Source: a virus. Taken from it: a stretch of 49,817 bases of DNA. The position numbers were made by a program, and so were the translations under genes. Location: IMG/VR virus record IMGVR_UViG_3300005340_000010; one strand, written 5' to 3'. The notes below the pieces were generated by a model, which saw nothing but the letters and a program-made list of their open reading frames with translations, was not told the DNA's origin and made no database searches. Position 1 is the stretch's first letter, and each line of letters begins with the position of its first letter. Below, in pieces: positions 27,262 to 39,227 of this stretch.

Positions 27262-27278
27262 GTGGGTGCTCCTTTCCG

Positions 27279-27470
27279 TTAAAAGACTAATTCGCCGAGT
27301 TCTTCGGCGATCGTTACACGAGGGCCTTCAGTGAAGTTCGCCTCCGCACATTTCGATGCGTACGCAATCGCCTTTTCGGTGGCCTCGTTGATAGTCTTAG
27401 CTTTGCCGATGATGTCCCTGTGCCAGTTGGGATTGTCGTCCCCTTCGATTCGAATCTTGAATACCTTCAT
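27279..27470 (-). CDS. Hypothetical protein, 63 aa
   Basis: AAGGAGaaagcgATG start, 30 nt downstream of the tRNA-like element. Confidence 0.6.
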   Translation of the reverse strand: MKVFKIRIEGDDNPNWHRDIIGKAKTINEATEKAIAYASKCAEANFTEGPRVTIAEELGELVF

Positions 27471-27510
27471 CGCTTTCTCCTTTTCGTGTTCAACTTCTCA
27501 GTGCTCAGAT

Positions 27511-27583
27511 GCGAGCCGGAAGGAATCGAACCCTCGACTGACCCCGCGCGTTGGTCAATGCGCTCCAGCCGCATCGCAGCCCG
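27511..27583 (-). tRNA. tRNA-like cloverleaf (73 nt, nominal anticodon GCG) with a non-canonical core and anticodon loop, embedded in a 94-nt extended hairpin (27501..27594)
   Basis: Hand-folded. Acceptor CGGGCTG/CGGCTCG, D arm ATGC-GGCTGGAGC-GCAT, anticodon arm GACCA-ACGCGCG-GGGTC, variable AGTC, T arm GAGGG-TTCGATT-CCTTC, discriminator C. Deviant bases: C8, G14, C33, C37. No CCA is encoded. Confidence 0.45.
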
Positions 27584-27594
27584 CATCCGAGCAC

Positions 27595-27756
27595 TCAAAA
27601 GTCGATACTTCTGCCTACCCTCCATCCCATAATCGCACACAGCCCGCACGCCACACTCGCAGGAACGATCGGCAGCGGATGGCCGGATAGCTCCGACGAG
27701 GCGCAGGTCAGGAGCGCGAGCAGGAATACGATGAAGCCGAGAGTGTGGCGGGTCAT
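27595..27756 (-). CDS. Small lipoprotein-like membrane protein, 53 aa
   Basis: ATGA overlap with the upstream stop. MTRHTLGFIVFLLALLTC has a lipobox-like LLTC. A second hydrophobic stretch follows. Below the ORF-track size cut-off. Confidence 0.5.
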   Translation of the reverse strand: MTRHTLGFIVFLLALLTCASSELSGHPLPIVPASVACGLCAIMGWRVGRSIDF

Positions 27757-27938
27757 GGCTTGTGCTCTTCCGAACCGTACCGAATGTTCAGCACAGCCTC
27801 AACCCAGGTTGCGTGACCGGTAGCATCGTGGTGTCTCGCGGCTACGGCCTGAGCGTTAGGAGCCAGCCAATGCGCTTCAATACCGAAGCACTGAAAGCAG
27901 CCCGCTCGCACGTCCCGTGACGTGTAGGTGCGTCGCAT
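27753..27938 (-). CDS. Small Cys/His protein, 61 aa
   Basis: TGATG overlap with the RHH gene. CFQCFG...HHDATGH motif. Confidence 0.5.
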   Translation of the reverse strand: MRRTYTSRDVRAGCFQCFGIEAHWLAPNAQAVAARHHDATGHATWVEAVLNIRYGSEEHKP

Positions 27939-28258
27939 CACTTCCGCCCCCTTCCTCGCCGCGCAACGGGCTTCTTCGCCGTTCGAATCGGCGGCGGAAT
28001 GGTCCACTTCGGAGCATCGGCATACACACGCTCGCATGTCATCTGATGCATCCGCGTCCAAGTCATTGCGCCGCAGTGGTCGCACTTCCTATCCTCGGCG
28101 GCATCAAGCCCCGGCATCGGCGAATTCACGTAGGTTTGGAGCGCCCGCACCACCACGTAATTGAGGCTCAGCTTCGGTGCGGTCTGCTCCGCCTCCCGTT
28201 TGAGGGCGGCGTGAACGGAGGCGGGGATGCGGAAGGAGACGGTGACGGTTGGAGTCAA
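27938..28258 (-). CDS. Ribbon-helix-helix (Arc/CopG-like) DNA-binding protein with a C-terminal Cys/His cluster, 106 aa
   Basis: GGAGGctgcgTTG start, with a TTGA overlap with the upstream stop. VSFRIPASVHAALKREAEQTAPKLSLNYVVVRALQTYV fits a strand-helix-helix pattern. CDHCG...H...C lies in the tail. Confidence 0.55.
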   Translation of the reverse strand: MTPTVTVSFRIPASVHAALKREAEQTAPKLSLNYVVVRALQTYVNSPMPGLDAAEDRKCDHCGAMTWTRMHQMTCERVYADAPKWTIPPPIRTAKKPVARRGRGRK

Positions 28259-28464
28259 CGCAGCCTCCCCTTTGCGGCGCCGTTCCAGTGGCCTTTTTCC
28301 TTCGCGTGCGCGGCCAGCTTCTTGACGAGATATAGAACTTCTGGCAGATCGCGCCACTCCAATTCCAAACTGAAGCCTTCACCGTAATCGCCATAGATCG
28401 AGAAAGACTCACGGCGGGCTTCCGCGTGAATACCCTTCCCGTGATCATCCAAGATTAATCCCAT
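28255..28464 (-). CDS. Hypothetical protein, 69 aa (leaderless start)
   Basis: ATG 28464 lies 7 nt after a -10 element and has no SD. Confidence 0.55.
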   Translation of the reverse strand: MGLILDDHGKGIHAEARRESFSIYGDYGEGFSLELEWRDLPEVLYLVKKLAAHAKEKGHWNGAAKGRLR

Positions 28465-28470
28465 GCGTGC

Positions 28471-28499
28471 ATCCTATCACCATTTGCAGCGACTTGCAA
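28471..28499 (-). promoter_or_regulatory. Internal sigma70-like promoter TTGCAA-17-TAGGAT, 6 nt before ATG 28464
   Basis: The minus strand reads TTGCAAgtcgctgcaaatggtgaTAGGATgcacgcATG. It starts 1 nt after the stop of 28500..29600. Confidence 0.5.
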
Positions 28500-29600
28500 T
28501 CACTTCGACCGCACCGCCCTCTTCCGCACCGGCAGCGCCTTCTTCGGCGGATCGGCCGGCCTGTTGATCTCCGCGATTGCTGCGGCGAACGCCCGACCGC
28601 CATCGCTCACGACCGGCTCGGCGAGGTAGAACGAGCAGCACGTCAGGCCGGTGCCAGAGATCGTTCCACGCTCGAAAAAGTAATCGGGGCAGCCAAGCAT
28701 GAACCGCGTGCAGTCGCGGAACTCGCGTCCAACGCGGCGCAGCAGATCGACCAGCGCCATCGTCTCTTCGGGAGCGGGGCGGAGGCGAGCGAGGGCGCCG
28801 ACGATAGCAGCCTCGGAATCCGATTCTCCTCGCGCGCGCGCCGACGCCGCAGCGAAAACGGCACGCTTAATCGCCGATGGAAACTGCTGATGGTCAATCT
28901 CGCTGATCCCCATCGGCCGCGATGTCCGCACGTCAAGGAATCCGGGATCGTCAGGCTCGCCGCGGAGTCGCGCGTAGTGGCCGCCGCCGACGTCACCGTA
29001 ATTGTGAATCCATTCCTCATCGCAGATAGGGCCGAGCGGATGCAATTCTGCGCCAGCGTTCGAGAACATGTGGTCAATAAGATCCGTGTACCTTTTCTGG
29101 ATCGTCGCGCTATCGCTGTCGCACCCACCAATCCACGCATCCGGTATAGCCCGCCGAATCCCGCGCACGAACGCAAGACACATTGGCATGTAAACGTCGC
29201 GCATGTAGTCGCGCGTCGCAGTCGGCCCGTCGTCGCCCTCGTACGCCTGCGCCTTCGGCCCCGGCTCGTTTTCGAACGACCACGACTTGACCATGCGGCC
29301 GAATTCTTTGGCGAGTTCGAACGCGGCTCGTTCATGGAATACCGGAGCGTACGACTGAGGCCCCGCGCCGACGCAGTAGTTCGCGTTGATGTTCATTCCG
29401 GCTTCGAAGGCAGGCTCGATCCACGCGCGGAACAAGCTCCTGTCCCACTTGTCCGGCAGCGGCGCGGCAATCGAGAGGTCGAACTGCAACCGCAGCCCGT
29501 CAACCCCAAGTGCGCGCAACGCCCGGTACGACGCGACAGTGGGGAACGGCTGCGGTGATGCGCCTTGCGGGTAGGGGACTTGGCACAGGCCTACAATCAC
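28500..29600 (-). CDS. Clan GH-A (GH5-like) TIM-barrel glycoside hydrolase, 366 aa, no signal peptide
   Basis: SWSFENEPG (Asn-Glu acid/base, E112), IHNYGD (H-x-Y) and PMGISEID (nucleophile candidate E234, 122 residues later) match the 4/7 superfamily layout. Confidence 0.55.
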   Translation of the reverse strand: MIVGLCQVPYPQGASPQPFPTVASYRALRALGVDGLRLQFDLSIAAPLPDKWDRSLFRAWIEPAFEAGMNINANYCVGAGPQSYAPVFHERAAFELAKEFGRMVKSWSFENEPGPKAQAYEGDDGPTATRDYMRDVYMPMCLAFVRGIRRAIPDAWIGGCDSDSATIQKRYTDLIDHMFSNAGAELHPLGPICDEEWIHNYGDVGGGHYARLRGEPDDPGFLDVRTSRPMGISEIDHQQFPSAIKRAVFAAASARARGESDSEAAIVGALARLRPAPEETMALVDLLRRVGREFRDCTRFMLGCPDYFFERGTISGTGLTCCSFYLAEPVVSDGGRAFAAAIAEINRPADPPKKALPVRKRAVRSK

Positions 29601-29779
29601 GGCTGCGCCTCCAGTTCTTCACTGGGCGCCATGCACACTACGCAGACACAATCGCGAACCGCAGAGCCGTCCCATCCGGCTCGATCAGAAGCGATCACTT
29701 CTCCACGAAAATTAAGTCTGCCTTCTACTGTCAGCCCGCAACCAATACATTTAAACCGCTGCCTTCCGTTCATGTGCAT
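29597..29779 (-). CDS. Zinc-ribbon small protein, 60 aa
   Basis: CIGCG...CVCVVC. ATGA overlap with the downstream gene. Confidence 0.55.
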   Translation of the reverse strand: MHMNGRQRFKCIGCGLTVEGRLNFRGEVIASDRAGWDGSAVRDCVCVVCMAPSEELEAQP

Positions 29780-30072
29780 GCCTCGTCAATCTGATCGTGG
29801 TACTTTCGATATTCGCCTACGAATTCCGGTTCAATGACATCAACTCGCAGCGGTTGTAGCGGTTGCTTGAATGCCATAACGCTGACGTAGATACCGCACC
29901 CGAACAGCAGGCGAATTCGATCGCGCCATGTCAACGAAAATAGAAAGGTGAGCGTGCCCGCTTCGTCGCCGATTGAAATCCCTTCAAGTTGACGGTACTC
30001 AACGCCGCCGTACGACCAGCGACGATAGTTGGGCCAGTCGTGGATACGTTTTGCCGCAAGTGGCTCACTCAC
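29770..30072 (-). CDS. Hypothetical protein, 100 aa
   Basis: Coupled ORF in the early-left operon. Confidence 0.55.
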   Translation of the reverse strand: MSEPLAAKRIHDWPNYRRWSYGGVEYRQLEGISIGDEAGTLTFLFSLTWRDRIRLLFGCGIYVSVMAFKQPLQPLRVDVIEPEFVGEYRKYHDQIDEACT

Positions 30073-31556
30073 TTTCCACCTCCCGCTTTCGCGAGGGCTA
30101 CGCGGAGTTCTTCCATGCGTACATAAACGACATCAGAATCCTCAGACTCGTTGAACTCTTTAAGCGCCCGCTTCGCTACCTCCACGACGGTGCGCAAGGC
30201 ATCAATCTCTGGCTGGCGGGCGTTCCACGCTTTCTGTGCAACGTGCGCAGCGTAGTCGCGACGATCGTGGTTACGGAATACCTCGCCATAGTTGATGCGC
30301 TCCCACTCTTCAAACGTCAACACCATCACATCTCCGTCCGGCTGTTGCGTGGGAATGGGGCGCACGTAATCCTCATCAAAATCACTGTGCATGGCTCGCC
30401 TCCACCAAATCGGCGGAGCGGAGGGCGGTACCTCTTTCACGCCGACTGTCGGATGGTCGAACGGTTTCCATACGGTGCCACAACCACCATCGCTCGGCTT
30501 ACAGAGATGCTTCCGATGCGTCCGCGTCGTTGCCCAGTTTCCGGTTTCGTCGTCTACGTCGATGTGCTGCAACCCGCACTTCAGGCAGTGCAACACCATC
30601 GGAACAGGCGCCGCCTCGCTCCTCTGCGCGTTCGCCGGTTCGGGAGGTGTGACGGGGCGCCTCTCGGCTAACCTTTCAGCATCAGACGTGACGGTGCCGC
30701 CGTCTGGGCCGCCGCTACCGTCATCGCGGCCATCTTTGTCCTCCGCTGCCGGTGCGTCGATCGCAGCGAGGGCTTCCCGCGCCGTTCTATGAGCGCAGAG
30801 GTCGTTCATGTCTGCGGGGCCGGGACATCTCCCGCCACCGAAGGACGGACCGCTTCCCGGCTGATCGTAGACGCAGAATCGGGCGCCGATCTTCTGCAAC
30901 CCATTCCGCGCCGTTTCGAGTTGGCGGGTCAGGGTGGCGTTCTGATTGCCCAAAGTGTAGACGTGAGCGCGAAGCCCCTCAATTTCCGCATCGCGCGTCT
31001 TACGCCCATCACAAACGCAAGTCTTGCGATCCGGCTGAGCGAAGCATGTAGAGCACGTCCGCTCAATCGCTAGCACACGTTCCGCCTCATTCGCATGCTG
31101 TTCGGCCTCGTCGAGGGTGGCGAGGAGAGGCGCAAAACGTCGGATTAATTTGCATTCGTTTGAGGCTTTCAACCCGCGACCGTGTTCACGCCAGTGCGAG
31201 GCCGGGGTATGGCCTTCATACGTATGCGCGGCCAGCAACTCAACCGCCTCCTTCACCGCATCCGCTCGAAACGCATCGGGGGCGGGCGGTTCGGTCGCGG
31301 CGCGATAAGGGTGGCACGTCGGCGTGTGATCGCACGGTCCGCAGCCCACCCCGAACAACTGATGCGGACGAGCGTCGCAATCCAAGCCGCAGTCAGCACA
31401 CGGCACACCCGTATCATCCATCGCCATCGCCTGCGCAATCGCCGCAGGACACGCCTCGTCAGCATGCGCCGTGAGCCATCGCGCGAATTCGGGCTGACCG
31501 TTCGCTTCGGCCTGTGATCGGGCGGCGTGGATTTGATCGAGCAGGGATTCAGGCAT
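30069..31556 (-). CDS. Multi-zinc-ribbon protein with a coiled-coil segment, 495 aa
   Basis: ATG 31556 was chosen (8-nt overlap with the upstream stop). Several C-x2-C / C-x-C clusters, an acidic Gly-rich linker, and HCLKCG...HLC...GGCG in the C-terminal half. Confidence 0.6.
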   Translation of the reverse strand: MPESLLDQIHAARSQAEANGQPEFARWLTAHADEACPAAIAQAMAMDDTGVPCADCGLDCDARPHQLFGVGCGPCDHTPTCHPYRAATEPPAPDAFRADAVKEAVELLAAHTYEGHTPASHWREHGRGLKASNECKLIRRFAPLLATLDEAEQHANEAERVLAIERTCSTCFAQPDRKTCVCDGRKTRDAEIEGLRAHVYTLGNQNATLTRQLETARNGLQKIGARFCVYDQPGSGPSFGGGRCPGPADMNDLCAHRTAREALAAIDAPAAEDKDGRDDGSGGPDGGTVTSDAERLAERRPVTPPEPANAQRSEAAPVPMVLHCLKCGLQHIDVDDETGNWATTRTHRKHLCKPSDGGCGTVWKPFDHPTVGVKEVPPSAPPIWWRRAMHSDFDEDYVRPIPTQQPDGDVMVLTFEEWERINYGEVFRNHDRRDYAAHVAQKAWNARQPEIDALRTVVEVAKRALKEFNESEDSDVVYVRMEELRVALAKAGGGK

Positions 31557-31851
31557 TATCGCCTCCCGTTTCAACAACGCGGTTCTGATCTGACTGCGCG
31601 AGTGCTTCGATGCCGAAGATTGCTTTGTTCGCAGCCGCGCGGGCGTCGTAAGCCATCTGACGCATCTGTTTGATAACGGCGCGTTCGCACTGAAGCTCGA
31701 TCCGCATCTCGGCGATCTCGGACTGCGCGGCGAGGATGTAAGCGCGGGCGGCCATCAGCGTGATCGTCGAGTCACGATGCGGTACGTAGTTGATTACGTC
31801 ATTCAACGCCGCGACCATCTCCTCGACACTGACCTTCGTTTCGTCGCTCAT
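31549..31851 (-). CDS. Hypothetical helical protein, 100 aa
   Basis: Coupled ORF (ATGA with the upstream gene). Confidence 0.6.
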   Translation of the reverse strand: MSDETKVSVEEMVAALNDVINYVPHRDSTITLMAARAYILAAQSEIAEMRIELQCERAVIKQMRQMAYDARAAANKAIFGIEALAQSDQNRVVETGGDNA

Positions 31852-32069
31852 TCAATCCTCCGACGATTCCACGCCGTGATCGGATTTTCGCCGCCGGGGC
31901 CTTCCGCGCCGCACCACATGCATCGAACTATCGGGTCGGCGCGCAGCACACCAGCGGGCGCCCTGCTCGCATGCCAGAACGGGCACGGAGCTAATTGAAT
32001 CTCAACGCTGCCCGGATAGCATTTCCAGCAGACGCCGTTAGGTCCATACACGTGTTTGTGGTCCGTCAT
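31848..32069 (-). CDS. Lar-family (restriction alleviation)-like protein, 73 aa
   Basis: LAPCPFWH...VRCMWCGAEGP...ENPITAWNRR follows the Lar pattern (PCPFCG...C..CGA...A.AWNRR). The first CxxC is degenerate. Confidence 0.55.
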   Translation of the reverse strand: MTDHKHVYGPNGVCWKCYPGSVEIQLAPCPFWHASRAPAGVLRADPIVRCMWCGAEGPGGENPITAWNRRRIE

Positions 32070-32248
32070 CCCTTCTCCGATCCGCGATGCGACGCGGCTT
32101 CAAACGAATGTGACCGGATCGGGCCTGCGCACCTACGGCATTCAGCACCTCGCCCCGTTGCGCCACTGATCGAAACATATTGGCCGTGATGCCATATGCG
32201 CAGATGCCCGCATATCCTGCAATGATCCACTGTCATATCCGCCTTCAC
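32066..32248 (-). CDS. Zinc-ribbon small protein, 60 aa
   Basis: CRICGH...CRRC. Coupled on both sides. Confidence 0.55.
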   Translation of the reverse strand: MKADMTVDHCRICGHLRIWHHGQYVSISGATGRGAECRRCAGPIRSHSFEAASHRGSEKG

Positions 32249-33801
32249 TGCCCACCCCCACTACAAACCGCCCGCGCCACCCACAACTCAGCAAACGGCA
32301 CATCACGTATCGTCCTGTGCTCGCCGCCCGTCAGCTTCGTTTCGATCATCTTGTACCAGTCGGCGGAGTGGCTGGCGTCGGCGCGGAAGGGGCCGACGAC
32401 GATGCACGGAACAACTTCTGAGGTTGCGGGCCGGGCTTGAGTACCGGCTCCCTTCGCACTACCAGCCATCAGTCGCGGAGGCCCTGATAGCGTTGCGGTC
32501 ATGCTCGCGAGGCGAACATCGGAAGGGGCTGCTCCGTCCCGCGTTTCCTTCAACGCCGTCGCAACCTCAGAAGACTTTTCAACCATTTCAAACGACGGCT
32601 CTACGATCGAGAAATCCAGACTCTTGCTATCCGTCACGCTCGCCCACGCATAGAACCTCGGGCATCCCGACTCACACCCCACCGTGCGTGCCGCCAGCTC
32701 ATTCGGCATCACTGCGGTCTGCTGCACCTCGACCCACGCGCTCTGTATCGCCGCAGTTCGGTTGAGCCGGTTCGCCGCGAACGCATCGGCTCCGAACATC
32801 TCCTCGGCGCTCCGCTTGACCGATTCAAACGGCCCGAGCGTTTCGGTCCAGCGCCGACCGCGCTCGACACCCGACCCGTCATGCAGGATGGCCGTCAGTA
32901 CGGTCGTGGAGTAGACGGACGCGTTGTTGAGGCCGATCTGCGTAGTGAAATGGCCCTCGTTGCGAATGCCGACGATCTGCACGCGGTTCATTCCAGCGGC
33001 GCCGTCAAGTCCTGGTAGCGCGTACCACGGAATGGCGGTCATCGAATCGCCGTGCGTGCCACCTGTCGCACTCACCGAGTAGATGCGCACCGACGCGCTG
33101 ATCTTCCGAATCGCAGCGGGGTTGAAGTTCTGGAGCACATGCGGGTTAATCGGATCGCTAGTCTGGTCGATGGCATCGCCACACGGGATGAACTCTTTGC
33201 ATGCATTGATGACGAGCTGCCCCTGCCCGCTGATACCGATCTCGCCGACTTCCACCGTGAGCGACTGCCTCGGATTGAGGTAGCGCACGTCCACCCGCTG
33301 TTGCAGCAATGGCGCATTCGGATCGGCGTCGTGCGAGTTCGCTGACCGGAAGGTGTAGCTGATGCTCACGCGGTCGGCGGTCAGGTTGGTCAGCGTCAGG
33401 TCGGTTAAGTAGGGCGCAGAGTGGACGACGTAGGGGATGTGGAGCTGTTCGGAGGGGTATTGAGCGAGAATCTGAGGCGCCAAAATGAGGCAGAGAAATA
33501 ATACGGCGAAGATGCTGCCCGCGAATTTGTCCCGCATTGCTTTCCAGTCTGCCACGTACTTTTCCGCGCCGCGCTCCTCCGGCCATCCAGTGATGAAATC
33601 GGTGCGGCATGTCGGGCACGTTCCAAGATCGTGATGAAAGCATTGGCAGCAAACGCGGCGGCGGCATTCTTGGCAACGATGACCGCGATAGTTCTGCTCC
33701 TCGCCGCACCGATCACACCACCAACGTTTCGGCGCGCGCATGTAGCGGGCCAGCACGCCACCGTTGCGATCGCACTTCCAGCGCTCGTTGGTGTAACTCA
33801 T
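32245..33801 (-). CDS. Membrane-anchored protein, 518 aa: N-terminal RING/treble-clef-like double zinc finger, one TM helix, large extracytoplasmic domain
   Basis: GGAGGcccgATG at 33801. CDRCG-x10-CQEC-x4-CCQC-x7-CPTC, TM segment SIFAVLFLCLILAPQILA, then a ~400-aa beta-rich domain (IPYVVHSAPYLTDLTLTNL...). Confidence 0.65.
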   Translation of the reverse strand: MSYTNERWKCDRNGGVLARYMRAPKRWWCDRCGEEQNYRGHRCQECRRRVCCQCFHHDLGTCPTCRTDFITGWPEERGAEKYVADWKAMRDKFAGSIFAVLFLCLILAPQILAQYPSEQLHIPYVVHSAPYLTDLTLTNLTADRVSISYTFRSANSHDADPNAPLLQQRVDVRYLNPRQSLTVEVGEIGISGQGQLVINACKEFIPCGDAIDQTSDPINPHVLQNFNPAAIRKISASVRIYSVSATGGTHGDSMTAIPWYALPGLDGAAGMNRVQIVGIRNEGHFTTQIGLNNASVYSTTVLTAILHDGSGVERGRRWTETLGPFESVKRSAEEMFGADAFAANRLNRTAAIQSAWVEVQQTAVMPNELAARTVGCESGCPRFYAWASVTDSKSLDFSIVEPSFEMVEKSSEVATALKETRDGAAPSDVRLASMTATLSGPPRLMAGSAKGAGTQARPATSEVVPCIVVGPFRADASHSADWYKMIETKLTGGEHRTIRDVPFAELWVARAVCSGGGQ

Positions 33802-33844
33802 CGGGCCTCCAAATGCGCGGCGGGTTCGGCGATGCGGCGGGAGG

Positions 33845-34132
33845 TCATGCGATCTCCTCGGCCCATCTCGCGGCGGCTTCGTCCACTCGATCTGCAAGCG
33901 CCGATAGGCCACGTTGCCTGCGAAGAAGTAGGGCGGCATTGCGCAGGGTTTGAATGTTGCGCATCGCCCACTTCCTATCGAAATGCTTGCGCGACTTATC
34001 AGAACGCGACTTCTTCGCGCCGGGATGATGGACGCCGCACTTGCCATCTTTCGTTGCGCGACGCGAGCATTGGTGACCGGTAACATCTAACGGGTCACTG
34101 TCATAGACTCGCTCGCTGCATTGCTCTTTCAT
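33845..34132 (-). CDS. Basic small protein with an N-terminal Cys/His cluster, 95 aa
   Basis: C...HQC...DGKCGVHH, then a basic helical tail. ATGA overlap with the upstream ORF. Confidence 0.55.
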   Translation of the reverse strand: MKEQCSERVYDSDPLDVTGHQCSRRATKDGKCGVHHPGAKKSRSDKSRKHFDRKWAMRNIQTLRNAALLLRRQRGLSALADRVDEAAARWAEEIA

Positions 34133-34251
34133 GATCTCCTCCGCGCAGCAACAAACGTCACGATCGCCAACATCAGCAACACCGCACCGATGGTGAACGG
34201 ATCAAACCGCACGGCGATGTTGCGCTGTTCGAACCAATCGGGGCGGGTCAT
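34129..34251 (-). CDS. Small single-TM membrane protein, 40 aa
   Basis: ATGA overlaps at both ends. TM segment FTIGAVLLMLAIVTFVAA. Below the ORF-track cut-off. Confidence 0.45.
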   Translation of the reverse strand: MTRPDWFEQRNIAVRFDPFTIGAVLLMLAIVTFVAARRRS

Positions 34252-34400
34252 TGAGGCTCCATTCGTGCGCCAATCGGAACGTCAACTGCCAAGCGCCAGA
34301 GTATCCTAGCGGCATCCCTGCGCGCCTCCAACCCGAATTGCTGATCCACGATAACGTGATCGTGCGCATGCACTAGAAACCAAAACACGCTGATGTCCAT
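34248..34400 (-). CDS. First gene of the early-left operon, 50 aa (leaderless start)
   Basis: ATG 34400 lies 7 nt after a -10 element. The tracked GTG 34442 start would lie upstream of the promoter. Confidence 0.45.
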   Translation of the reverse strand: MDISVFWFLVHAHDHVIVDQQFGLEARRDAARILWRLAVDVPIGARMEPQ

Positions 34401-34406
34401 CACCCC

Positions 34407-34435
34407 AACTTGGGTCCCGACTGGAGCAAAGTCAA
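34407..34435 (-). promoter_or_regulatory. Sigma70-like promoter TTGACT-17-CAAGTT, 6 nt before ATG 34400
   Basis: The minus strand reads gccacTTGACTttgctccagtcgggaccCAAGTTggggtgATG. Confidence 0.5.
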
Positions 34436-34444
34436 GTGGCACTC

Positions 34445-34466
34445 AAAGAAAAAGGCCGACCTTTCG
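34445..34466 (-). terminator. Weak hairpin plus T-rich tract (GAAAGG-tcgg-CCTTTT-TCTTTGA), possible attenuator after the mini-ORF
   Basis: 5-6 bp stem followed by a T-rich run on the minus strand. It lies between the upstream promoter/mini-ORF and the 34435 promoter. Low predicted stability. Confidence 0.2.
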
Positions 34467-34507
34467 ATCAGCCTTCCAGTAATCCAAACTTCGTGGCGAT
34501 GATTCGA

Positions 34508-34546
34508 CTACTCCGGGGGATCTTCGGGACCGTAACCGTTCTTCAT
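34508..34546 (-). CDS. 12-codon mini-ORF (MKNGYGPEDPPE) with a strong SD
   Basis: AAGGAGGGcgaccATG. Located 40 nt downstream of promoter 34615->34587. Possibly a leader peptide, or not translated. Confidence 0.25.
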   Translation of the reverse strand: MKNGYGPEDPPE

Positions 34547-34586
34547 GGTCGCCCTCCTTTTCGGTTCGTTCGGGTGTTGCGGGATC

Positions 34587-34615
34587 AATCTGCGTTCGCG
34601 TCGGCGCGTTGTCAA
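34587..34615 (-). promoter_or_regulatory. Sigma70-like promoter TTGACA-17-CAGATT (leftward)
   Basis: The minus strand reads ggcTTGACAacgcgccgacgcgaacgCAGATTgatcc. It sits back-to-back with the rightward promoter, 40 bp away. Confidence 0.5.
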
Positions 34616-34655
34616 GCCGTCCGCAACATTTTCTTTCGATCGGCGCGCGGACCCC

Positions 34656-34684
34656 TTGACAAACTGAAGTGGCGAACCGAAGTT
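34656..34684 (+). promoter_or_regulatory. Sigma70-like promoter TTGACA-17-GAAGTT (rightward), 7 nt before ATG 34692
   Basis: ccccTTGACAaactgaagtggcgaaccGAAGTTgagggatATG. A second in-frame ATG at 34704 has GGAGG. Confidence 0.5.
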
Positions 34685-34691
34685 GAGGGAT

Positions 34692-34985
34692 ATGGAGGCA
34701 ACAATGCAGACCACGACCACGACACCCGAGCCGTTCATTCCGGAAGGGCTTCGCAAAGCAACGCGAATGGCTGGGCGCGCAGCACGCAATCGAGCAGCCG
34801 TGTTTGGGCGTGCGGCGTGCCCTTGTCGCAGAATACGGCTATCACGCACGGCAGTGCGGGCACGCGAATGTGATGCCGAAACCTTGACTATCGGTGCGCG
34901 ATGTGCCGATGGTCGCGAGCGTACCGCTCGTTTCCGTTGGTCCGGTGCTACTGGTACTGGTCGCGGCCTGAAGGTCTCGTCGTGA
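34692..34985 (+). CDS. Arg-rich basic protein, 97 aa, first gene of the early-right operon (start 34692 or 34704)
   Basis: It has both promoter-proximal and SD-supported starts. The Arg/Ala-rich composition leaves its coding status uncertain. Confidence 0.4.
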   Translation: MEATMQTTTTTPEPFIPEGLRKATRMAGRAARNRAAVFGRAACPCRRIRLSRTAVRARECDAETLTIGARCADGRERTARFRWSGATGTGRGLKVSS

Positions 34986-34995
34986 CCGCAACGGA

Positions 34996-35250
34996 ATGGC
35001 GTTCCAGCGAGCTCGCATGACCGCCGACACCCCCGAATCCCGCCTCCTTCGCGCAATCGCTGGCGAGCCGCAACCCTGCGGCCACATCGAGCGTTTCGTG
35101 GAGCACGTTGCAGCCCATCCCGAAGTCGTCATTTCGACCGGCGAGGATGAGGGTACGGCTCCGGCGGTTGAGTGCCAGCTTTGCGAGGTGGTTATTCCGT
35201 GGCGGACGTTTTTGAAGCTGGTTGTTACGGAATTGCAGGAGAGGAGCTGA
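34996..35250 (+). CDS. Hypothetical protein, 84 aa
   Basis: ORF with ordinary composition and an ATGA overlap with the next gene. Confidence 0.55.
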   Translation: MAFQRARMTADTPESRLLRAIAGEPQPCGHIERFVEHVAAHPEVVISTGEDEGTAPAVECQLCEVVIPWRTFLKLVVTELQERS

Positions 35251-35684
35251 TGGTCACATTTCCCGAAGGTACAACGCCGCTTCAGGAGCTTCATTCGCAC
35301 CTCAACGGGTACTGCGGCGAGCATGAGGATTTGAATGCGTGCCTCCGGCGCGTTCGTGAACTGGTCGAAGAGTTGATGCCGCTGGAGGCGAAGCAGGAGC
35401 CTCCGAAGATGCCGAGCGATCAGCACTTTACCTACGCGGCACACGTCCTCGCTCCAGTGTTTCGCGAGAACGGGTGGAAATGGGCGATGCCGAGCGGCGA
35501 ACTCCGCGTACCGACCGCAGCGGAGATTACAAAAACGCTTTGCATGTTGGCGGGAATGGTTCACGAGAACGGCGAACGCGCCGGAACCGGAAGGCTTGTG
35601 GCATTCGAACACCGATGGACCGACGCGGACGCTGATGTGCGCCTCGGCCTGGAAATCATGCCGCCAAGCGCGGCGTCGGATTGA
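35250..35684 (+). CDS. Hypothetical protein, 144 aa
   Basis: GAGGAGctgATG, overlapping the upstream stop. Confidence 0.6.
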   Translation: MVTFPEGTTPLQELHSHLNGYCGEHEDLNACLRRVRELVEELMPLEAKQEPPKMPSDQHFTYAAHVLAPVFRENGWKWAMPSGELRVPTAAEITKTLCMLAGMVHENGERAGTGRLVAFEHRWTDADADVRLGLEIMPPSAASD

Positions 35685-35860
35685 AGGGGGAGTAGATGGA
35701 TTCGAAGGTTTCGTGATCGGCTGCAACTCCAGTGCGGACGAGGGGTCGCCGCTAGTGATCTGTGGGATGTGAGAAGCGAGTTGTCCGCCACACAGCGCGC
35801 CGAAGTGAACACAGGAACGACTCGGCAGCCGGTCACGAAGTTTTCGAAAAGGAGAAACGC

Positions 35861-36046
35861 ATGAGCAGAAAATCTTTGGAACAGACAATCGCAACAACCT
35901 TCCTATCCGGCGCCGGACTGAAGGTCGCACAACGAGTCGCCGAGGAGATGCTGACGACGGCGATGGCAGAGAAGGATATGGATGCCGTCGAACAGCTCAG
36001 CAAGGTTCGGGGCGATCTGCGGAAGTTGGCGGGAGGTGGCAAGTGA
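35861..36046 (+). CDS. Hypothetical protein, 61 aa
   Basis: AAAGGAGaaacgcATG after a 176-bp gap. Confidence 0.55.
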   Translation: MSRKSLEQTIATTFLSGAGLKVAQRVAEEMLTTAMAEKDMDAVEQLSKVRGDLRKLAGGGK

Positions 36047-36483
36047 GCGCGCGGAAGGGTGAAGCCCTGAAGCCGCTAAGGGAGCGTTCCATCAATCGGC
36101 GTGACTCGCAGCCCGAGATCGGCGAAGGGATCGGCGTCAACTGCGTCGGCCCGGGCAATCACCACGACGACTGCTCGGTAGCGGGAGCGCCGCAACCCCG
36201 TAACGACCAAGAAATGAAAGGCAGCCCCGTCGTTGTCACTATAACCTTGACACCGCGCGCGGCGGAGTTTTTCGGCGCATTGGTCTGCAAGATCGGCGGC
36301 TCCCATTCTGGCCCTCGCGGTGAGATTGTCGAATCGTTCCGTCAGCAACTGATTGCGCAAGGCATCGAGTCTGCGAATGGTAGCGTGACGCCTCGTGAGT
36401 GGCGCGAATACTGGCTGGAAGAAAAGGTGCCCACGCTCGGCTCACTGCTGGCCAACCAGTGGCCGCGCTGGAGTCGCAAGTGA
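36043..36483 (+). CDS. Hypothetical protein, 146 aa
   Basis: GTG start overlapping the upstream stop (GTGA). Confidence 0.55.
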   Translation: MSARKGEALKPLRERSINRRDSQPEIGEGIGVNCVGPGNHHDDCSVAGAPQPRNDQEMKGSPVVVTITLTPRAAEFFGALVCKIGGSHSGPRGEIVESFRQQLIAQGIESANGSVTPREWREYWLEEKVPTLGSLLANQWPRWSRK

Positions 36484-37433
36484 CCGACACGCTCGCCCCC
36501 GGCCTTCATCGCGATGTGCCGATGGATCTCTATTTGTCGGACGAATTAACCCCCCAACCGGCCCTCAGTGCTTCCGGTATTCGCACGCTGATCGAAGCAA
36601 CCCCGCTCACCTTTGCGGCGCGGAATCCGCGATTGTGGCGGGAGTTGAATCTGTGGCCCGGAGAGTTCAAGCGGAAGGAATCGAAGCAGACCAAGATGGG
36701 AACGGCCATCCATTCGATTCTGCTCGGCGCCGGTCAAGCCATCTGCGTTTTCCGGCCCGAGGATTTCAAGACAAAGAGCGGCAAGCCGGGGAGAAATCTC
36801 GGGACGGACGAGGCGAAGGCGGCAATCGCGGCGGCAATCGAAGATGGCCTACTACCGCTCAGCGAAGCGGAGAACATCATCGCGACAAGCGCCGCCGCCT
36901 TCGCCGAAAAGAAGATTCTCGCGAATCCCATCTACGGCGAAGCATGGGAGCGCGGAGAGTCCGAAGTTACCCTCGTGTGGCAGCGCGAGACATCGAGCGG
37001 GCCAATCTGGTGCCGGGCGCGGCCTGACCGCTTCGACATCGCGACCGGAACCGCGTTCGATCCAAAGACGACAGCGAAGGCGATCGACGCTCCGGCGCTC
37101 GCGCGAAAGTTCGCCGGCGAGGGAGCTGACTATCAGGCCGCATGGATATGTGACGGCATCGAGACCATCTTTCCGGCCCTTCGCGGTCGCTCACGCTTCG
37201 TTCCGATTGCCGTCGAGGTTGAGCCTCCGTACGACTCCCGATTCGTCCGCTTTCCGACTTCCACATTACAGCTCATTGGTCAACAGATTGACCTTGCCTG
37301 CGAGCTGTTCGCGAAGTGCATCTACTCGGGAGTTTGGCTCGGGTGGGATGACTCGGAAGGGGAGACGGTGCTCCCCGAGGTTGCGTGGCGTGAGCGGTCC
37401 ATCATCGAAGCATTGGAGGCTGAAGAGTCATGA
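36480..37433 (+). CDS. PD-(D/E)xK exonuclease, RecE/DUF3799-like, 317 aa
   Basis: GTG 36480 overlaps the upstream stop. N-terminal GLHRDVPMDLYLSDE...ALSASGIRTL, core RARPDRFDI...FDPKTT (D...D-x-K) and a YQAAW motif fit DUF3799-type recombination exonucleases. Confidence 0.7.
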   Translation: MTDTLAPGLHRDVPMDLYLSDELTPQPALSASGIRTLIEATPLTFAARNPRLWRELNLWPGEFKRKESKQTKMGTAIHSILLGAGQAICVFRPEDFKTKSGKPGRNLGTDEAKAAIAAAIEDGLLPLSEAENIIATSAAAFAEKKILANPIYGEAWERGESEVTLVWQRETSSGPIWCRARPDRFDIATGTAFDPKTTAKAIDAPALARKFAGEGADYQAAWICDGIETIFPALRGRSRFVPIAVEVEPPYDSRFVRFPTSTLQLIGQQIDLACELFAKCIYSGVWLGWDDSEGETVLPEVAWRERSIIEALEAEES

Positions 37434-37645
37434 ACGAAAAAGAACGTAATCTCGCATTCTGGACAATTCGCGGAAGCATCCTGAACGCGATCACGGGGAC
37501 CGATGTTCAGGTGCTCGTTGAATATGGCCGCGAGAAAGAAATCGCTAACGCCATCATCGAGGGCATTATTGAGGACAGCGGCGCGCGCGAGGAGATGCTG
37601 CGGCTCCTGAATGAGGAGAAAGCGCTACAGGTCGAATCGCTATGA
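37430..37645 (+). CDS. Hypothetical protein, 71 aa
   Basis: Coupled ORF between the exonuclease and ATPase genes. Confidence 0.55.
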   Translation: MNEKERNLAFWTIRGSILNAITGTDVQVLVEYGREKEIANAIIEGIIEDSGAREEMLRLLNEEKALQVESL

Positions 37646-38916
37646 AAGTTCCCGAGCGAACCTTCGAAACCGTGAAAGCCGAACCGGGTACGCGCCCGCT
37701 GTGGATCGGACTGATGGGGCCAAGCGGCGGCGGAAAGACGTTCTCTGCGCTCCGGCTCGCGGTCGGAATTCAGTCGGTCATCGGCGGGCAAATTGAGATC
37801 ATCGACACCGAGAGCGGACGCGGCAAACACTACGCGGAGATGTTCGACTATCAATACACTGCGTTTCCTCCGCCGCACGGATCACTCGACTATCAGGCGG
37901 CAATTGACCATGCCGTGAAGGTCAATAAATCCTCCATCATCATCATCGACTCAGCATCACATGAACATGAAGGGGATGGCGGAATGATCGAGTCTCACGA
38001 AAGGGAACTCGACCGGATGGCTGGCGACGACTGGAAGAAGCGCGACGCTGTCGCGATGCTCGCGTGGACGAAACCAAAAGCGGCGCGCAAGCAACTGTTG
38101 CGGTCCATGCTGGCGCACGGAACTTCGGTCGTATTCATCCTCTGTTTCCGCGCCGACGAATCTTCGAAGCCGGTCAAGAAAGGCGGGAAAACCGAGGTCA
38201 TTCAGATGGGCTTCATGCCGATCGCAGGCAAGGGCTTCGTCTACGAGTGCACGGTCTGCGCGCTTCTGATGCCCGGAGCAAACGGCGTCCCGACGTGGAA
38301 CCCGGAAAACGTCGGGGAGAAGATGATGAAGAAGCTCCCCGAGCAATTCAAAGAGATGTTCGCCGAGTCGGAGGGTAAGCCGATGAGCGAGGAGCACGGA
38401 GTCGCGCTGGCGAAATGGTCACTCGGCGGATCGAAAGCCGCGCCGGTCGCCAAACAGGCCGAGAAACCGCCCCAAACGCTCGCTGAGCGCGCCAAAGCCG
38501 CAGAAGGCTTCCTGATGCGTGCCACGTCGTCTGAAGCGTTGGAGAAGCGCTGGAAGAACGCCAAGCCGCTTTGTGACGAGCTGCGTGACCCGGTCGCCCA
38601 GGTTGACCCGCATCTATACGCCGATCTGAAGAAGGTCTACGACGAATGCGCGGCGAAGTTCAGGCCGGGATTCGTGCCGCCAGAAGCGGGCGGCGAGCCT
38701 CCCGATGGCGCCATGTCCATCGAATACGCGAAGGATCTGGCGAACCGCGTGGAAACGCACCTGATGGCGGAAAACGACGGCAGCAAGTCGAAGGCCGAAC
38801 TGGCACTTTCGGAGTTGACGAGCGGGAAGGTGCAAACGTTCGCTGCCCTACCGCTGTACATTTTCGACCACAACGAAATCTCCGGCAAGTTGATCGCCGC
38901 GATGGAGGAAGGATGA
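37642..38916 (+). CDS. Sak4-like (AAA_24/RecA-fold) recombination ATPase with a ~190-aa C-terminal extension, 424 aa
   Basis: Walker A GPSGGGKT and Walker B IIIIDS. The N-terminal ~230 aa resembles phage Sak4-type ATPases, and the neighbouring gene is an exonuclease. Confidence 0.65.
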   Translation: MKVPERTFETVKAEPGTRPLWIGLMGPSGGGKTFSALRLAVGIQSVIGGQIEIIDTESGRGKHYAEMFDYQYTAFPPPHGSLDYQAAIDHAVKVNKSSIIIIDSASHEHEGDGGMIESHERELDRMAGDDWKKRDAVAMLAWTKPKAARKQLLRSMLAHGTSVVFILCFRADESSKPVKKGGKTEVIQMGFMPIAGKGFVYECTVCALLMPGANGVPTWNPENVGEKMMKKLPEQFKEMFAESEGKPMSEEHGVALAKWSLGGSKAAPVAKQAEKPPQTLAERAKAAEGFLMRATSSEALEKRWKNAKPLCDELRDPVAQVDPHLYADLKKVYDECAAKFRPGFVPPEAGGEPPDGAMSIEYAKDLANRVETHLMAENDGSKSKAELALSELTSGKVQTFAALPLYIFDHNEISGKLIAAMEEG

Positions 38917-39227
38917 AAACCGGAGCGGAACTTATCACCGAAGAACGGCAGCGCCAGATCGTCGAAGAGGAGTGGACCGCCGAGCATGACGACGAACACT
39001 CGCTCGGCGAGATGGCCGTCGCTGCCGCGTGCTACGCGTGGCCGCCTCCGCGCCCTGTTGATGTGAAAAAGGCATGGCCTTGGGACCGCAGATGGTGGAA
39101 GCCATCGCCGCTCCCGCTCGGCGCAACAGCGGGCGAAAAACTGGATGGACGAATCCGCGAACTCGTCAAGGCCGGAGCGCTCATTGCCGCAGAAATCGAC
39201 CGACTATCGCGGACGGTGAAGCCATGA
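38913..39227 (+). CDS. Conserved-looking phage protein, 104 aa
   Basis: ITEERQRQIVEEEWTAEHDDEHSLGEMAVAAACYA...GALIAAEIDRL is a pattern I recall from many phage genomes. The family name is not certain. Confidence 0.55.
   Translation: MKTGAELITEERQRQIVEEEWTAEHDDEHSLGEMAVAAACYAWPPPRPVDVKKAWPWDRRWWKPSPLPLGATAGEKLDGRIRELVKAGALIAAEIDRLSRTVKP

What the first reader, a model, noticed from the sequence alone, without database searches (positions are those of the whole stretch)
32245..33801. Membrane-anchored protein with an N-terminal RING/treble-clef-like double zinc finger and a ~400-aa extracytoplasmic domain
The ORF starts at GGAGGcccgATG (33801), not at the tracked 34086. The first ~70 residues contain CDRCG-x10-CQEC-x4-CCQC-x7-CPTC plus flanking His residues. 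That is four C-x2-C-type knuckles in a RING- or B-box-like cross-brace spacing. A basic linker and one TM helix (SIFAVLFLCLILAPQILA) follow. Then comes a large beta-rich domain beginning IPYVVHSAPYLTDLTLTNLTADRVSISYTF, a pattern I associate with secreted beta-sandwich domains of soil bacteria. A cytoplasmic zinc finger coupled through the membrane to a large outside domain is the topology of anti-sigma factors and transmembrane signal transducers. I know of no described phage protein with this combination. It is the largest early gene and could sense or modify the envelope while acting on a cytoplasmic target.
Basis: partly seen in the sequence, partly recalled or inferred. Interest (0 to 1): 0.65.

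Follow-up and report, generated by a model that had tools for sequence, protein, structure and literature searches.

The report
Zinc-finger gene fused to secreted protein
This phage gene is a one-off in-frame fusion of a small zinc-finger gene, found elsewhere only on its own, to a secreted all-beta protein that these phages share with Acidobacteriota, so the "membrane anchor" is most likely that protein's signal peptide and not part of a signalling device.

Summary
The ORF (32245-33801, minus strand, 518 aa) is real. The ATG at 33801, the Cys/His-rich N-terminus, the single hydrophobic segment and the beta-rich C-terminal part are all present.

The protein is a chimera of two families that occur separately everywhere else I looked.
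- Residues 1-67 belong to an unnamed family of stand-alone 80-107 aa phage proteins. There are 12 homologues and 21 invariant positions, and none has a helix or an ectodomain.
- Residues 89-405 belong to an unnamed family of about 80 cluster representatives. Typical members are 300-350 aa secreted proteins of Thermoanaerobaculia (Acidobacteriota) and related phage-like contigs.

The "TM helix" aligns with that family's N-terminal signal peptide. The signal-peptidase motif is conserved: position -1 is Ala or Gly in 51 of 53 sequences, and the window reads I-L-A|Q. DNA homology to a sister phage starts at the cleavage-site codon. In that phage the protein starts at the position of the window's Met89.

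No anti-sigma, RING, B-box or ZZ model matches. The structure searches returned only generic beta-sandwich and weak cross-brace zinc-finger matches.

Best reading: a recombination-generated fusion at a mosaic hot spot whose two halves work independently. A functional bitopic protein is not excluded (about 15%). The biochemical function of both modules is unknown. Interest is modest.

The parts
32245..33801 (-). Complete chimeric ORF, 518 aa plus stop codon
   Evidence: Translation. An independent gene caller called the same 518-aa protein on two contigs.
33806..33810 (-). Shine-Dalgarno sequence GGAGG, 4 nt upstream of ATG 33801
   Evidence: Sequence.
33798..33848 (-). 16-codon mini-ORF MTSRRIAEPAAHLEAR*. 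It is the relic of the ancestral start (signal-peptide n-region) of the secreted-protein gene. It overlaps both neighbours by ATGA.
   Evidence: Sequence. 'MT(S/A)RRIA' starts at least 9 phage-type family members. The stretch is 27/29 nt identical to the L001 gene start.
33601..33801 (-). Zinc-finger module, residues 1-67. It belongs to a family of stand-alone 80-107 aa phage proteins.
   Evidence: 12 homologues, 49-73% identity, 21 invariant positions. hmmsearch E = 9e-34, residues 4-67 on profile positions 2-64. AF2 pLDDT 88 for residues 30-60.
33526..33600 (-). Junction/linker, residues 68-92. It replaces the C-terminal tail of the stand-alone zinc-finger proteins. It contains Met89 (33535-33537), a possible internal start.
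   Evidence: Alignment A5: similarity to the zinc-finger family ends near residue 70. P0002 starts at the position of Met89. The upstream sequence GGAAAGCA is a weak SD.
33463..33525 (-). Hydrophobic segment, residues 93-113. It corresponds to the h- and c-regions of the family's signal peptide. The predicted signal peptidase I site is ILA|QY, between codons 113 and 114.
   Evidence: Only hydrophobic segment in the protein. It aligns with the N-terminal signal peptides of the family. Position -1 is A 43/53 and G 8/53; position -3 is A, L, V or I in 47/53. DNA homology with L001 resumes at 33466.
32587..33462 (-). Conserved all-beta ectodomain, residues 114-405, probably two tandem beta-sandwiches. 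It has conserved Cys pairs C201/C207 and C376/C380.
   Evidence: Profile hit E = 2.4e-108. Family of 80 representatives. AF2 pLDDT about 90. Conserved Cys.
32416..32586 (-). Variable, disordered linker, residues 406-462. It ends in the conserved motif RPATSEV.
   Evidence: AF2 pLDDT below 50. Variable in alignments A1 and A4.
32248..32415 (-). Small C-terminal domain, residues 463-518 (three strands plus one helix, C466...C513). It is found only in phage-type members.
   Evidence: AF2 pLDDT 73-90. Present in P0002-P0006, P0008, P0010 and P0088, and absent from bacterial members.

Best explanation
**What it is.** The ORF is a lineage-specific in-frame fusion of two unrelated genes. Recombination at a mosaic hot spot in the leftward early operon of a ~50-kb tailed phage created it. 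The phage probably infects Thermoanaerobaculia (Acidobacteriota).

**The two modules.**
- Module 1 (residues 1-67) is a small Cys/His-rich protein, presumably zinc-binding. Elsewhere it is always a free-standing 80-107 aa early gene product.
- Module 2 (from about residue 89) is a complete Sec-type pre-protein. It has a 25-residue signal peptide (MRDKFAGSIFAVLFLCLILAPQILA|QY), a ~290-aa all-beta domain shared with chromosomal secreted proteins of Thermoanaerobaculia, and a phage-specific linker and ~50-aa C-terminal domain.

**Shown.**
- The two modules are separate in every other sequence found.
- The helix is homologous in position to the family's signal peptide, and the cleavage motif is retained.
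- The recombination boundaries are codon 8 of the ancestral start and the cleavage-site codon.

**Inferred.**
- Translation from the strong SD at 33801 makes the fusion protein.
- The former signal peptide then acts as an internal signal sequence that exports the C-terminal part.
- Signal peptidase I cuts after Ala113. This releases the mature beta domain into the periplasm or envelope and leaves the zinc finger on a ~113-aa membrane-tethered stub. Some plain pre-protein may also be made from Met89.
- The two halves then work independently and no information crosses the membrane.

**Most likely role of the exported domain (weakest step).** It is an envelope-directed accessory function of a host-derived binding protein, such as receptor masking, superinfection exclusion or surface/matrix binding.
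For: **Module separation**
- None of the 5 close homologues (47-82% identity) has the Cys-rich region.
- Among about 100 family members only the window protein matches the zinc-finger profile, and about 85% have their hydrophobic core starting by residue 25.
- All 12 homologues of the N-terminus are stand-alone 80-107 aa proteins.
- These homologues lie in phage replication or early-gene modules (helicases, primase and a single-strand annealing protein where the neighbours could be identified) with no ectodomain gene nearby.
- Conversely, the sister-phage locus L001 and the IMG/VR contig L009 carry the ectodomain gene without any zinc-finger module.

**Signal peptide**
- Family N-termini are classic n-h-c signal peptides.
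- Position -1 is A or G in 51/53 sequences, position -3 is A, L, V or I in 47/53, and Pro is common at -4 to -6. The window reads P-Q-I-L-A|Q.
- Met89 to Ala113 is 25 aa, against 26 aa in P0002.

**Mosaic boundaries**
- blastn of the window against L001 shows synteny with short conserved junctions.
- The longest conserved block, 32244-33466 (84.6%), starts at the cleavage-site codon.
- The 16-codon relic MTSRRIAE... lies upstream.
- P0003 carries the same mature domain behind a different short N-terminus in another genomic context.

**Export**
- Conserved Cys pairs and the all-beta model fit an exported protein.
- Multidomain relatives carry PKD and matrixin domains.

**Host family**
- 11 of 12 genome loci are Thermoanaerobaculia/Acidobacteriota MAGs (names).

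**The fusion is real**
- The same 518-aa protein is called on two contigs.
- There is a strong SD.
- All 21 invariant zinc-finger-family positions are retained.
Against: - No dedicated signal-peptide or topology predictor was available. Cleavage of an internal signal sequence placed 88 residues from the N-terminus is inferred, not shown.
- A rapidly folding zinc domain upstream could interfere with targeting.
- Several other phage-type members also have Cys-containing N-terminal tails before the helix: P0003, P0012 and P0018. This could mean that cytoplasmic tails are selected and not accidental.
- The proposed envelope function rests only on localisation, gene position and generic beta-sandwich matches. 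RbmA scores E = 2e-4 but TM-score is only 0.1-0.2.
- Bacterial gene neighbourhoods gave no functional clue.
Confidence: 0.65

Rival explanations
1. It is a genuine bitopic signal-anchor protein. The zinc finger stays in the cytoplasm and is covalently coupled through an uncleaved helix to the outside beta domain. The protein acts as a transmembrane coupling device, either anti-sigma-like or by tethering a cytoplasmic target to the membrane.
For: - The primary product has this topology: net +6 before the helix, a single hydrophobic segment, and Cys pairs in the C-terminal part.
- The zinc-finger module keeps all invariant residues and has a strong SD.
- Other phage-type members carry shorter Cys-containing N-terminal tails: P0003, P0012 and P0018.
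Against: - The fusion is unique among about 100 ectodomain relatives and 12 zinc-finger relatives.
- The signal-peptidase motif is retained.
- There is no match to zf-HC2, RING or B-box models.
- No sigma-factor gene lies next to it. The only hint is a sub-threshold Sigma70_r2 hit about 8 kb away on the other strand.
- Sequence conservation between phages begins only at the cleavage site.
Confidence: 0.15
2. Only the secreted protein is functional. It is made from the internal Met89, and the upstream zinc-finger reading frame is a decaying remnant of a recombination event, like the 16-codon relic and the MazG-like fragment on P0004.
For: - Met89 aligns with the start of P0002 and gives a canonical 25-aa signal peptide.
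- The locus carries other in-frame scars: the mini-ORF and the N-terminus of P0004.
Against: - All 21 invariant positions of the zinc-finger family are intact.
- ATG 33801 has a perfect GGAGG, while Met89 has only GGAAAG. Ribosomes should therefore translate the whole fusion.
Confidence: 0.1
3. It is an assembly or sequencing artefact. A lost stop codon or a frameshift has joined two adjacent genes.
For: The zinc-finger homologues all end about 20-40 residues after the last conserved Cys.
Against: - The identical 518-aa protein is recorded on two contigs.
- The junction is not a simple stop-codon loss. The zinc-finger tail is replaced by unrelated sequence, and the neighbouring genes of the sister phage are different.
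Confidence: 0.05

Closest known systems
Zinc-binding anti-sigma factors (ZAS; zf-HC2, e.g. RslA, ChrR and membrane-bound relatives)
   Same: The order of parts in the primary product matches: a cytoplasmic N-terminal Cys/His metal-binding domain, one hydrophobic helix, and an extracytoplasmic C-terminal domain.
   Different: - There is no H-x3-C-x2-C anti-sigma domain (Pfam: no hit at E<=10).
- There is no adjacent ECF sigma gene.
- The two halves are separate genes in all relatives.
- The helix is a signal peptide with a conserved cleavage motif.
Cross-brace binuclear zinc fingers (ZZ, RING, PHD, DC1/C1, B-box)
   Same: Three conserved CxxC-type knuckles plus His ligands lie within about 35 residues. 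The spacing C-x2-C-x10-C-x2-C-x4-C-x2-C resembles ZZ (from memory, not tested). The top but non-significant Foldseek hits are DC1, PHD, ZZ and RING domains.
   Different: - No Pfam model reaches threshold; the best is zf-RING_4 at 9.3 bits against 27.
- The best Foldseek E-value is 0.85, with TM-score at or below 0.29.
- The family has its own invariant features (C10, DRNGG, FHHD) and occurs in phages of bacteria.
Phage-encoded exported or membrane-anchored accessory proteins of early/lysogeny regions (superinfection-exclusion proteins such as lactococcal Sie2009, T5 Llp, Cor). This comparison rests on general knowledge.
   Same: It is a phage non-structural gene in the early region, and its product is targeted to the envelope by an N-terminal hydrophobic signal. 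It is the most conserved early gene between two mosaic sister phages.
   Different: There is no sequence or structural similarity to any of them. There is no lipobox (LFLC is not a lipobox). The function is untested.
Vibrio cholerae RbmA (biofilm matrix scaffold, tandem FnIII domains)
   Same: It is the best PDB Foldseek match, aligned over about 320 columns. Both are secreted, all-beta, two-domain proteins.
   Different: E-values are only 2e-4, TM-score is 0.10-0.20, rmsd is 17-19 A and identity is about 10%. This is generic beta-sandwich resemblance, and GH2 Ig-like domains and arrestins score similarly.

Membership tests
ZAS / zf-HC2 anti-sigma factor | N-terminal anti-sigma domain with an H-x3-C-x2-C zinc motif (Pfam PF13490) | tested here: not met
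   Pfam scan of the full protein returned 0 families at E<=10. Pfam scan of the 13 zinc-finger-family members returned no zf-HC2.
ZAS / zf-HC2 anti-sigma factor | Co-transcribed cognate ECF sigma factor gene | tested here: not met
   The neighbours 33845-34132, 32066-32248 and 31848-32069 have no Pfam or PADLOC hits. The only Sigma70_r2 trace is sub-threshold (18.2 bits against 24) at 42048-42464 on the other strand.
RING / B-box / ZZ cross-brace zinc finger | Match to the family profile at the curated threshold | tested here: not met
   Best hit is zf-RING_4 at E = 1.3 and 9.3 bits against a cutoff of 27. No ZZ or B-box hit was listed. The PDB profile search found only ribosomal and RanBP2-type zinc ribbons at E >= 0.03.
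RING / B-box / ZZ cross-brace zinc finger | Cross-brace fold in which two zinc sites are formed by alternating ligand pairs | tested here: inconclusive
   AF2 pLDDT is 88 for residues 30-60. The top Foldseek hits are DC1, PHD, ZZ and RING, but all have E >= 0.85.
Unnamed stand-alone phage Cys/His-rich protein family (P0102-P0113) | Conserved core ER(Y/W)KCDRNGG...W.C..C...GH.C..C.RRVC.xCFHHD...C | tested here: met
   E-values run from 5e-24 to 2.5e-13 at 49-73% identity. There are 21 invariant columns including the window sequence. hmmsearch gives 9e-34.
Unnamed stand-alone phage Cys/His-rich protein family (P0102-P0113) | Free-standing 80-107 aa protein with the conserved C-terminal tail (SDV.P...C) | tested here: not met
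   The window matches only profile positions 2-64 of 89. The tail is replaced by a linker, the helix and the ectodomain.
Sec-type signal peptide cleaved by signal peptidase I | Positively charged n-region, hydrophobic h-region, c-region with small residues at -1 and -3, at the start of the mature domain | tested here: met
   Residues 89-113 read MRDKFAGS-IFAVLFLCLILAP-QILA|Q. In the family, -1 is A/G in 51/53 and -3 is A/L/V/I in 47/53. This is a heuristic assessment only, because no SignalP was available.
Sec-type signal peptide cleaved by signal peptidase I | Located at the N-terminus of the translated protein | tested here: not met
   In the 518-aa product the segment begins at residue 89-93. 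It is N-terminal only if translation starts at Met89.
Sec-type signal peptide cleaved by signal peptidase I | Actual cleavage and export | not testable with these tools
   This needs N-terminal sequencing or mass spectrometry, or PhoA fusions.
Bacterial lipoprotein signal | Lipobox [LVI][ASTVI][GAS]C at the end of the h-region | tested here: not met
   The only Cys in the helix is in L-F-L-C104. Position -1 is Leu and the Cys is not conserved.
Unnamed Thermoanaerobaculia secreted all-beta protein family | Profile match over the ~300-aa domain, with the conserved mature N-terminus (..ADQ.Y.P...H), invariant N139 and N293, W259 and the Cys pairs | tested here: met
   hmmsearch gives 2.4e-108 over profile positions 8-332. 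The family has 80 representatives, 21 of them at E<1e-30.
RbmA-like / FnIII tandem matrix proteins | Significant structural superposition on tandem FnIII domains | tested here: inconclusive
   Foldseek E = 2e-4 but TM-score is 0.10-0.20 and rmsd is above 17 A. There is no sequence signal.

The most novel reading that the evidence does not exclude
The fusion is not an accident. It is a working single-pass protein in which a phage zinc-finger effector is tethered to the inner face of the membrane and physically coupled to a host-derived envelope-binding domain. Such a device could link events at the cell surface to a cytoplasmic target. The Cys-containing N-terminal tails seen in other phage copies of the ectodomain gene (P0003, P0012, P0018) would then be independent solutions to the same selection.
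Probability: 0.13. Interest if true: 0.6.

Novelty: new variant of a known kind. Interest (0 to 1): 0.3.

Why it matters
- The apparent "phage transmembrane zinc-finger sensor" is most likely a mosaic fusion. This is a caution against reading function from the domain order of a single sequence.
- Two uncharacterised families were defined. One is a small Cys/His-rich early protein of soil phages. The other is a Thermoanaerobaculia-specific secreted all-beta protein that phages have captured, and it is the best-conserved early gene between two mosaic sister phages.
- These are concrete targets for work on phage-host interactions in Acidobacteriota, a group with almost no characterised phage biology.
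- The locus also offers a natural test of whether a signal peptide still works, and is still cleaved, when it is moved about 90 residues into a protein behind a metal-binding domain.

Tried and rejected
**Database searches that gave nothing**
- Pfam, PHROGs, NCBIfam and PADLOC scans of the protein and of both families gave nothing at threshold.
- tblastn against 50,697 GenBank phages found no match.
- PDB sequence-profile searches for both modules found nothing significant.
- Foldseek of the ectodomain model gave only generic beta-sandwich and jelly-roll matches with TM-score below 0.2, against both PDB and BFVD.
- Foldseek of the zinc-finger model gave nothing better than E = 0.85.
- One literature search on Acidobacteria prophages and superinfection exclusion found nothing relevant.

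**Searches for a second fusion or a linked pair of genes**
- None was found in the loci of the zinc-finger homologues.
- None was found in IMG/VR.

**Context searches**
- One subgroup of bacterial homologues lies upstream of rimP-nusA and another lies between beta-lactamase-family genes. This is housekeeping synteny and gives no functional clue.
- The promoter/terminator scan around the gene was at or below the shuffled expectation.

**Technical failures and discarded material**
- A combined alignment of both families (A6) misaligned the zinc-finger proteins and was not used for structure prediction.
- GC3 did not discriminate the frames upstream of 33801.
- The genome scan with the wide alignment A4 failed because it has no conserved stretch. 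It was repeated with A8.

**Readings rejected**
- Lipoprotein: there is no lipobox.
- Tail or structural protein: the gene lies in the early operon and has a signal peptide.
Full report
**1. The observation**

The minus-strand ORF ending at 32245 can be read back to 34086.
- It is preceded by GGAGG plus a 4-nt spacer.
- The stretch 33845-34132 is occupied by a separate 95-aa ORF.
- An independent gene caller made the same two calls on the source contig.

The product is 518 aa.
- Its first 70 residues hold 10 Cys and 3 His. Against the 1.5% Cys frequency of this window's ORFs, the binomial P is 1e-7.
- There is one hydrophobic segment, residues 93-113, with a Kyte-Doolittle 19-residue mean of 2.31.
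- AlphaFold2, run on a 28-sequence alignment, models residues 120-405 as all-beta at pLDDT about 90. Residues 407-462 are disordered. Residues 466-513 form a small three-strand-plus-helix domain.

Two corrections apply. The linker is not basic (net charge about 0 for residues 66-95). The fourth "knuckle" is only half conserved.

**2. The protein is a chimera**

A search of 5.8 billion proteins with the whole protein found only five homologues, at 47-82% identity. All are 394-473 aa, and none has the Cys-rich N-terminus.

A profile search of 1.84 billion cluster representatives enlarged this to a family of 80 representatives.
- Typical members are 300-350 aa. They begin with a textbook signal peptide, followed directly by a conserved mature N-terminus with consensus A|(Q/S)NFRAADQVYLPAAGH.

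A separate search with residues 1-95 found 12 proteins at E = 5e-24 to 2.5e-13 and 49-73% identity.
- Every one is a free-standing protein of 80-107 aa.
- 21 positions are invariant across the 13 sequences: C10, D11, R12, G14, G15, W27, C29, C32, G40, H41, C43, C46, R49, V50, C51, C54, F55, H56, H57, D58 and C62.

- The zinc-finger homologues lie in phage replication or early-gene modules, next to SNF2 and UvrD helicases, a primase or a Mgm101-type annealing protein where the neighbours could be identified. No ectodomain gene is within reach.
- The ectodomain genes of the sister phages have no zinc-finger gene nearby.

**3. The helix is the family's signal peptide**

In alignment A4, the position before the residue aligned with the window's Gln114 is Ala in 43 and Gly in 8 of 53 sequences.
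- Position -3 is A, L, V or I in 47 of 53.
- Position -2 is bulky.
- Pro is common at -4 to -6.

This is the classical signal peptidase I pattern (established knowledge: the -3/-1 rule). The window reads A-P-Q-I-L-A|Q-Y.

About 85% of family members have the hydrophobic core starting by residue 25. The closest homologue, P0002, starts at the position of the window's Met89. Met89 to Ala113 would be a canonical 25-residue signal peptide. There is no lipobox.

Conserved short-loop Cys pairs (C201/C207, C376/C380, and C466/C513 in phage-type members) fit an exported protein. Multidomain relatives carry PKD and matrixin domains.

**4. How the fusion arose**

The window is a tailed-phage genome. It encodes a large terminase, a major head protein, a tape-measure protein, RusA and an exonuclease.

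It is syntenic with a ~50-kb contig (L001; the same phage type is in IMG/VR as L009). The pattern is typical phage mosaicism, with short junctions at about 90% identity flanking different cassettes.
- The longest conserved block is 32244-33466 at 84.6% identity. It is the mature ectodomain, and it starts at the codon of the cleavage site.
- Upstream, both phages share the 25-nt start ATGACCTCCCGCCGCAT(C/T)GCCGAAC, encoding MTSRRIAE. This is the signal-peptide n-region of at least nine phage-type family members.
- In the window this start is now a 16-codon mini-ORF (33798-33848) that overlaps ATG 33801 by ATGA.
- In L001 the same start opens an unrelated 152-aa gene, and the secreted protein restarts at "MLRRIAEL".

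The stretch between codon 8 of the ancestral gene and the cleavage site is thus a slot in which cassettes are exchanged.
- In the window the cassette is a zinc-finger gene that lost its C-terminal tail. Only profile positions 2-64 of 89 are matched. It runs in frame into a linker and a signal peptide.
- P0004 shows another scar at this locus, a MazG-like fragment fused in frame.
- P0003 carries the same mature domain behind a different short N-terminus in a different genomic context, with its own AT-rich upstream region.

The fusion is unlikely to be an assembly error. The identical protein is recorded on two contigs, and the junction is a sequence replacement, not a lost stop codon.

**5. What the modules are**

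Neither module is in Pfam, PHROGs, NCBIfam or PADLOC.

*Zinc-finger module.*
- The AF2 model is moderately confident (pLDDT 88 for residues 30-60).
- It has no significant structural neighbour. The weak top hits are cross-brace fingers (DC1, PHD, ZZ, RING) at E >= 0.85.
- Profile searches give only sub-threshold zinc-ribbon hits.
- "RING/treble-clef-like" therefore remains a lead and not a result.

*Ectodomain.*
- The model matches only generic two-domain beta-sandwich proteins. RbmA scores E = 2e-4 with TM-score 0.1-0.2. GH2 Ig-like domains, arrestins, tail fibres and capsid jelly rolls score similarly.
- Two invariant Asn residues lie in similar strand-N-x-S/T-strand motifs (N139 and N293). 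This suggests two homologous repeats, which is inference.

*Taxonomy and context.*
- The cellular members are from Thermoanaerobaculia/Acidobacteriota MAGs: 11 of 12 genome loci, with names. The phage's host is probably in that class.
- In bacteria the gene lies either upstream of rimP-nusA or between beta-lactamase-family genes. This says nothing about function.

**6. Mechanism**

Shown:
- The modules are independent.
- The helix is positionally homologous to the signal peptide, and the cleavage motif is retained.
- The recombination boundaries are identified.

Inferred:
- Ribosomes starting at the strong SD at 33801 make the 518-aa fusion.
- The zinc domain stays in the cytoplasm (net +6 before the helix).
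- The former signal peptide works as an internal export signal.
- Signal peptidase I releases the mature domain from Gln114.
- A minor amount of ordinary pre-protein may start at Met89, which has only a weak GGAAAG upstream.
- The two parts then act separately.

For the exported part I commit, with low confidence, to an envelope-directed accessory role of a host-derived binding protein, such as receptor masking, superinfection exclusion or surface/matrix binding. The grounds are that it is exported, it is encoded in the early operon, and it is the best-conserved early gene between the two mosaic phages.

For the zinc-finger part the most that can be said is that it is a small early protein of the kind that usually binds a host or nucleic-acid target (general knowledge).

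**7. Rivals**

- *Functional uncleaved bitopic protein (about 15%).* This cannot be excluded. Three other phage-type members (P0003, P0012, P0018) have short Cys-containing tails before the helix, which is more than I would expect by chance and remains unexplained.
- *Translation only from Met89, with a decaying upstream frame (about 10%).* The intact invariant residues and the strong SD argue against this.
- *Artefact (about 5%).*

**8. Comparison and novelty**

The product has the part order of a membrane ZAS anti-sigma factor but fails the defining features that could be tested. It has no HxxxCxxC domain and no sigma partner.

It resembles cross-brace zinc fingers in ligand spacing only. 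It resembles phage exported accessory proteins in kind but not in sequence.

Both families are undescribed, and the fusion is unique so far. I rate it a new variant of a known kind, namely a phage-encoded exported accessory protein with an unusual zinc-finger gene fused ahead of its signal peptide. Interest is modest (0.3).

Noticed in passing
window 33798-33848 (-); L001 9549-9575: A 16-codon mini-ORF, MTSRRIAEPAAHLEAR*, is linked by ATGA overlaps to both neighbouring genes. The same MTSRRIAE(L) start opens an unrelated 152-aa gene in the sister phage, and it is the signal-peptide n-region of many phage-type family members. It looks like a conserved recombination boundary.
   Followed up: partly
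window 24284-42627 vs L001: The two ~50-kb phages are syntenic mosaics. Conserved junctions of 30-200 bp at about 90% identity flank non-homologous gene cassettes across the whole early region. This resembles the boundary sequences of lambdoid phages.
   Followed up: partly
window 30069-31577, 31848-32069, 32066-32248, 33845-34132, 26424-26642 (all -): The leftward early operon is unusually rich in Cys-containing proteins with CxxC pairs. One is a 502-aa protein with four CxxC motifs and 19 Cys. None has a Pfam or PADLOC hit.
   Followed up: partly
window 34129-34251 (-); L001 9054-9179: A 40-41 aa ORF encoding a single hydrophobic helix (MTRPDWFEQRNI.VRFDPFTIGAVLLMLA...) is conserved at 91% DNA identity between the two phages, two genes upstream of the target.
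   Followed up: no
bacterial family members P0022, P0024, P0027, P0029, P0033, P0035, P0037, P0041, P0046, P0048, P0050 (C-termini): Cellular members end in a short basic tail (G..x[VIL]RRxVxR/H, or H[RK]RMEKE) at the very C-terminus with no hydrophobic segment. This may be an unrecognised sorting or retention signal. Phage-type members replace it with a linker (RPATSEV) and a ~50-aa Cys-bounded domain ending in GGGQ.
   Followed up: no
L014, L015, L016, L019, L020, L021; L004, L010-L013: In six MAG loci (five Thermoanaerobaculia/Acidobacteriota, one binned as Rhodothermales) the family gene lies immediately upstream of rimP-nusA and downstream of a pseudouridine synthase. In another subgroup it lies between serine-hydrolase (beta-lactamase family) genes next to a LytTR two-component system.
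   Followed up: partly
P0003, P0012, P0018, P0007 (N-termini): Several phage-type copies of the ectodomain protein have N-terminal extensions of 15-75 aa before the signal-peptide helix that contain Cys knuckles (CPCCG; CQNCG; CECG...CPG...HCG). None matches the window's zinc-finger family.
   Followed up: partly
window 872-2548, 3427-5718, 14147-15124, 15674-16750, 16873-19179 and others: Ten of the largest ORFs have no Pfam hit at E<=0.001, and only four get weak-to-moderate PHROG hits (terminase, head, tape measure, one of unknown function). No integrase was seen. This phage lineage is very poorly covered by current databases.
   Followed up: partly
P0100, P0101 (JGI annotation): Two bacterial members of the secreted beta-domain family are labelled 'ferredoxin' by JGI. 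Nothing in the sequences supports this, because the signal peptide, the all-beta model and the absence of any Pfam hit all point elsewhere. It is probably a mis-annotation.
   Followed up: no
L002 8135-8668 (+): A 135-aa ORF lies about 2 kb downstream of a stand-alone zinc-finger gene. It gives a weak hit to the zinc-finger profile (E = 7e-5) and may be a distant paralogue.
   Followed up: no
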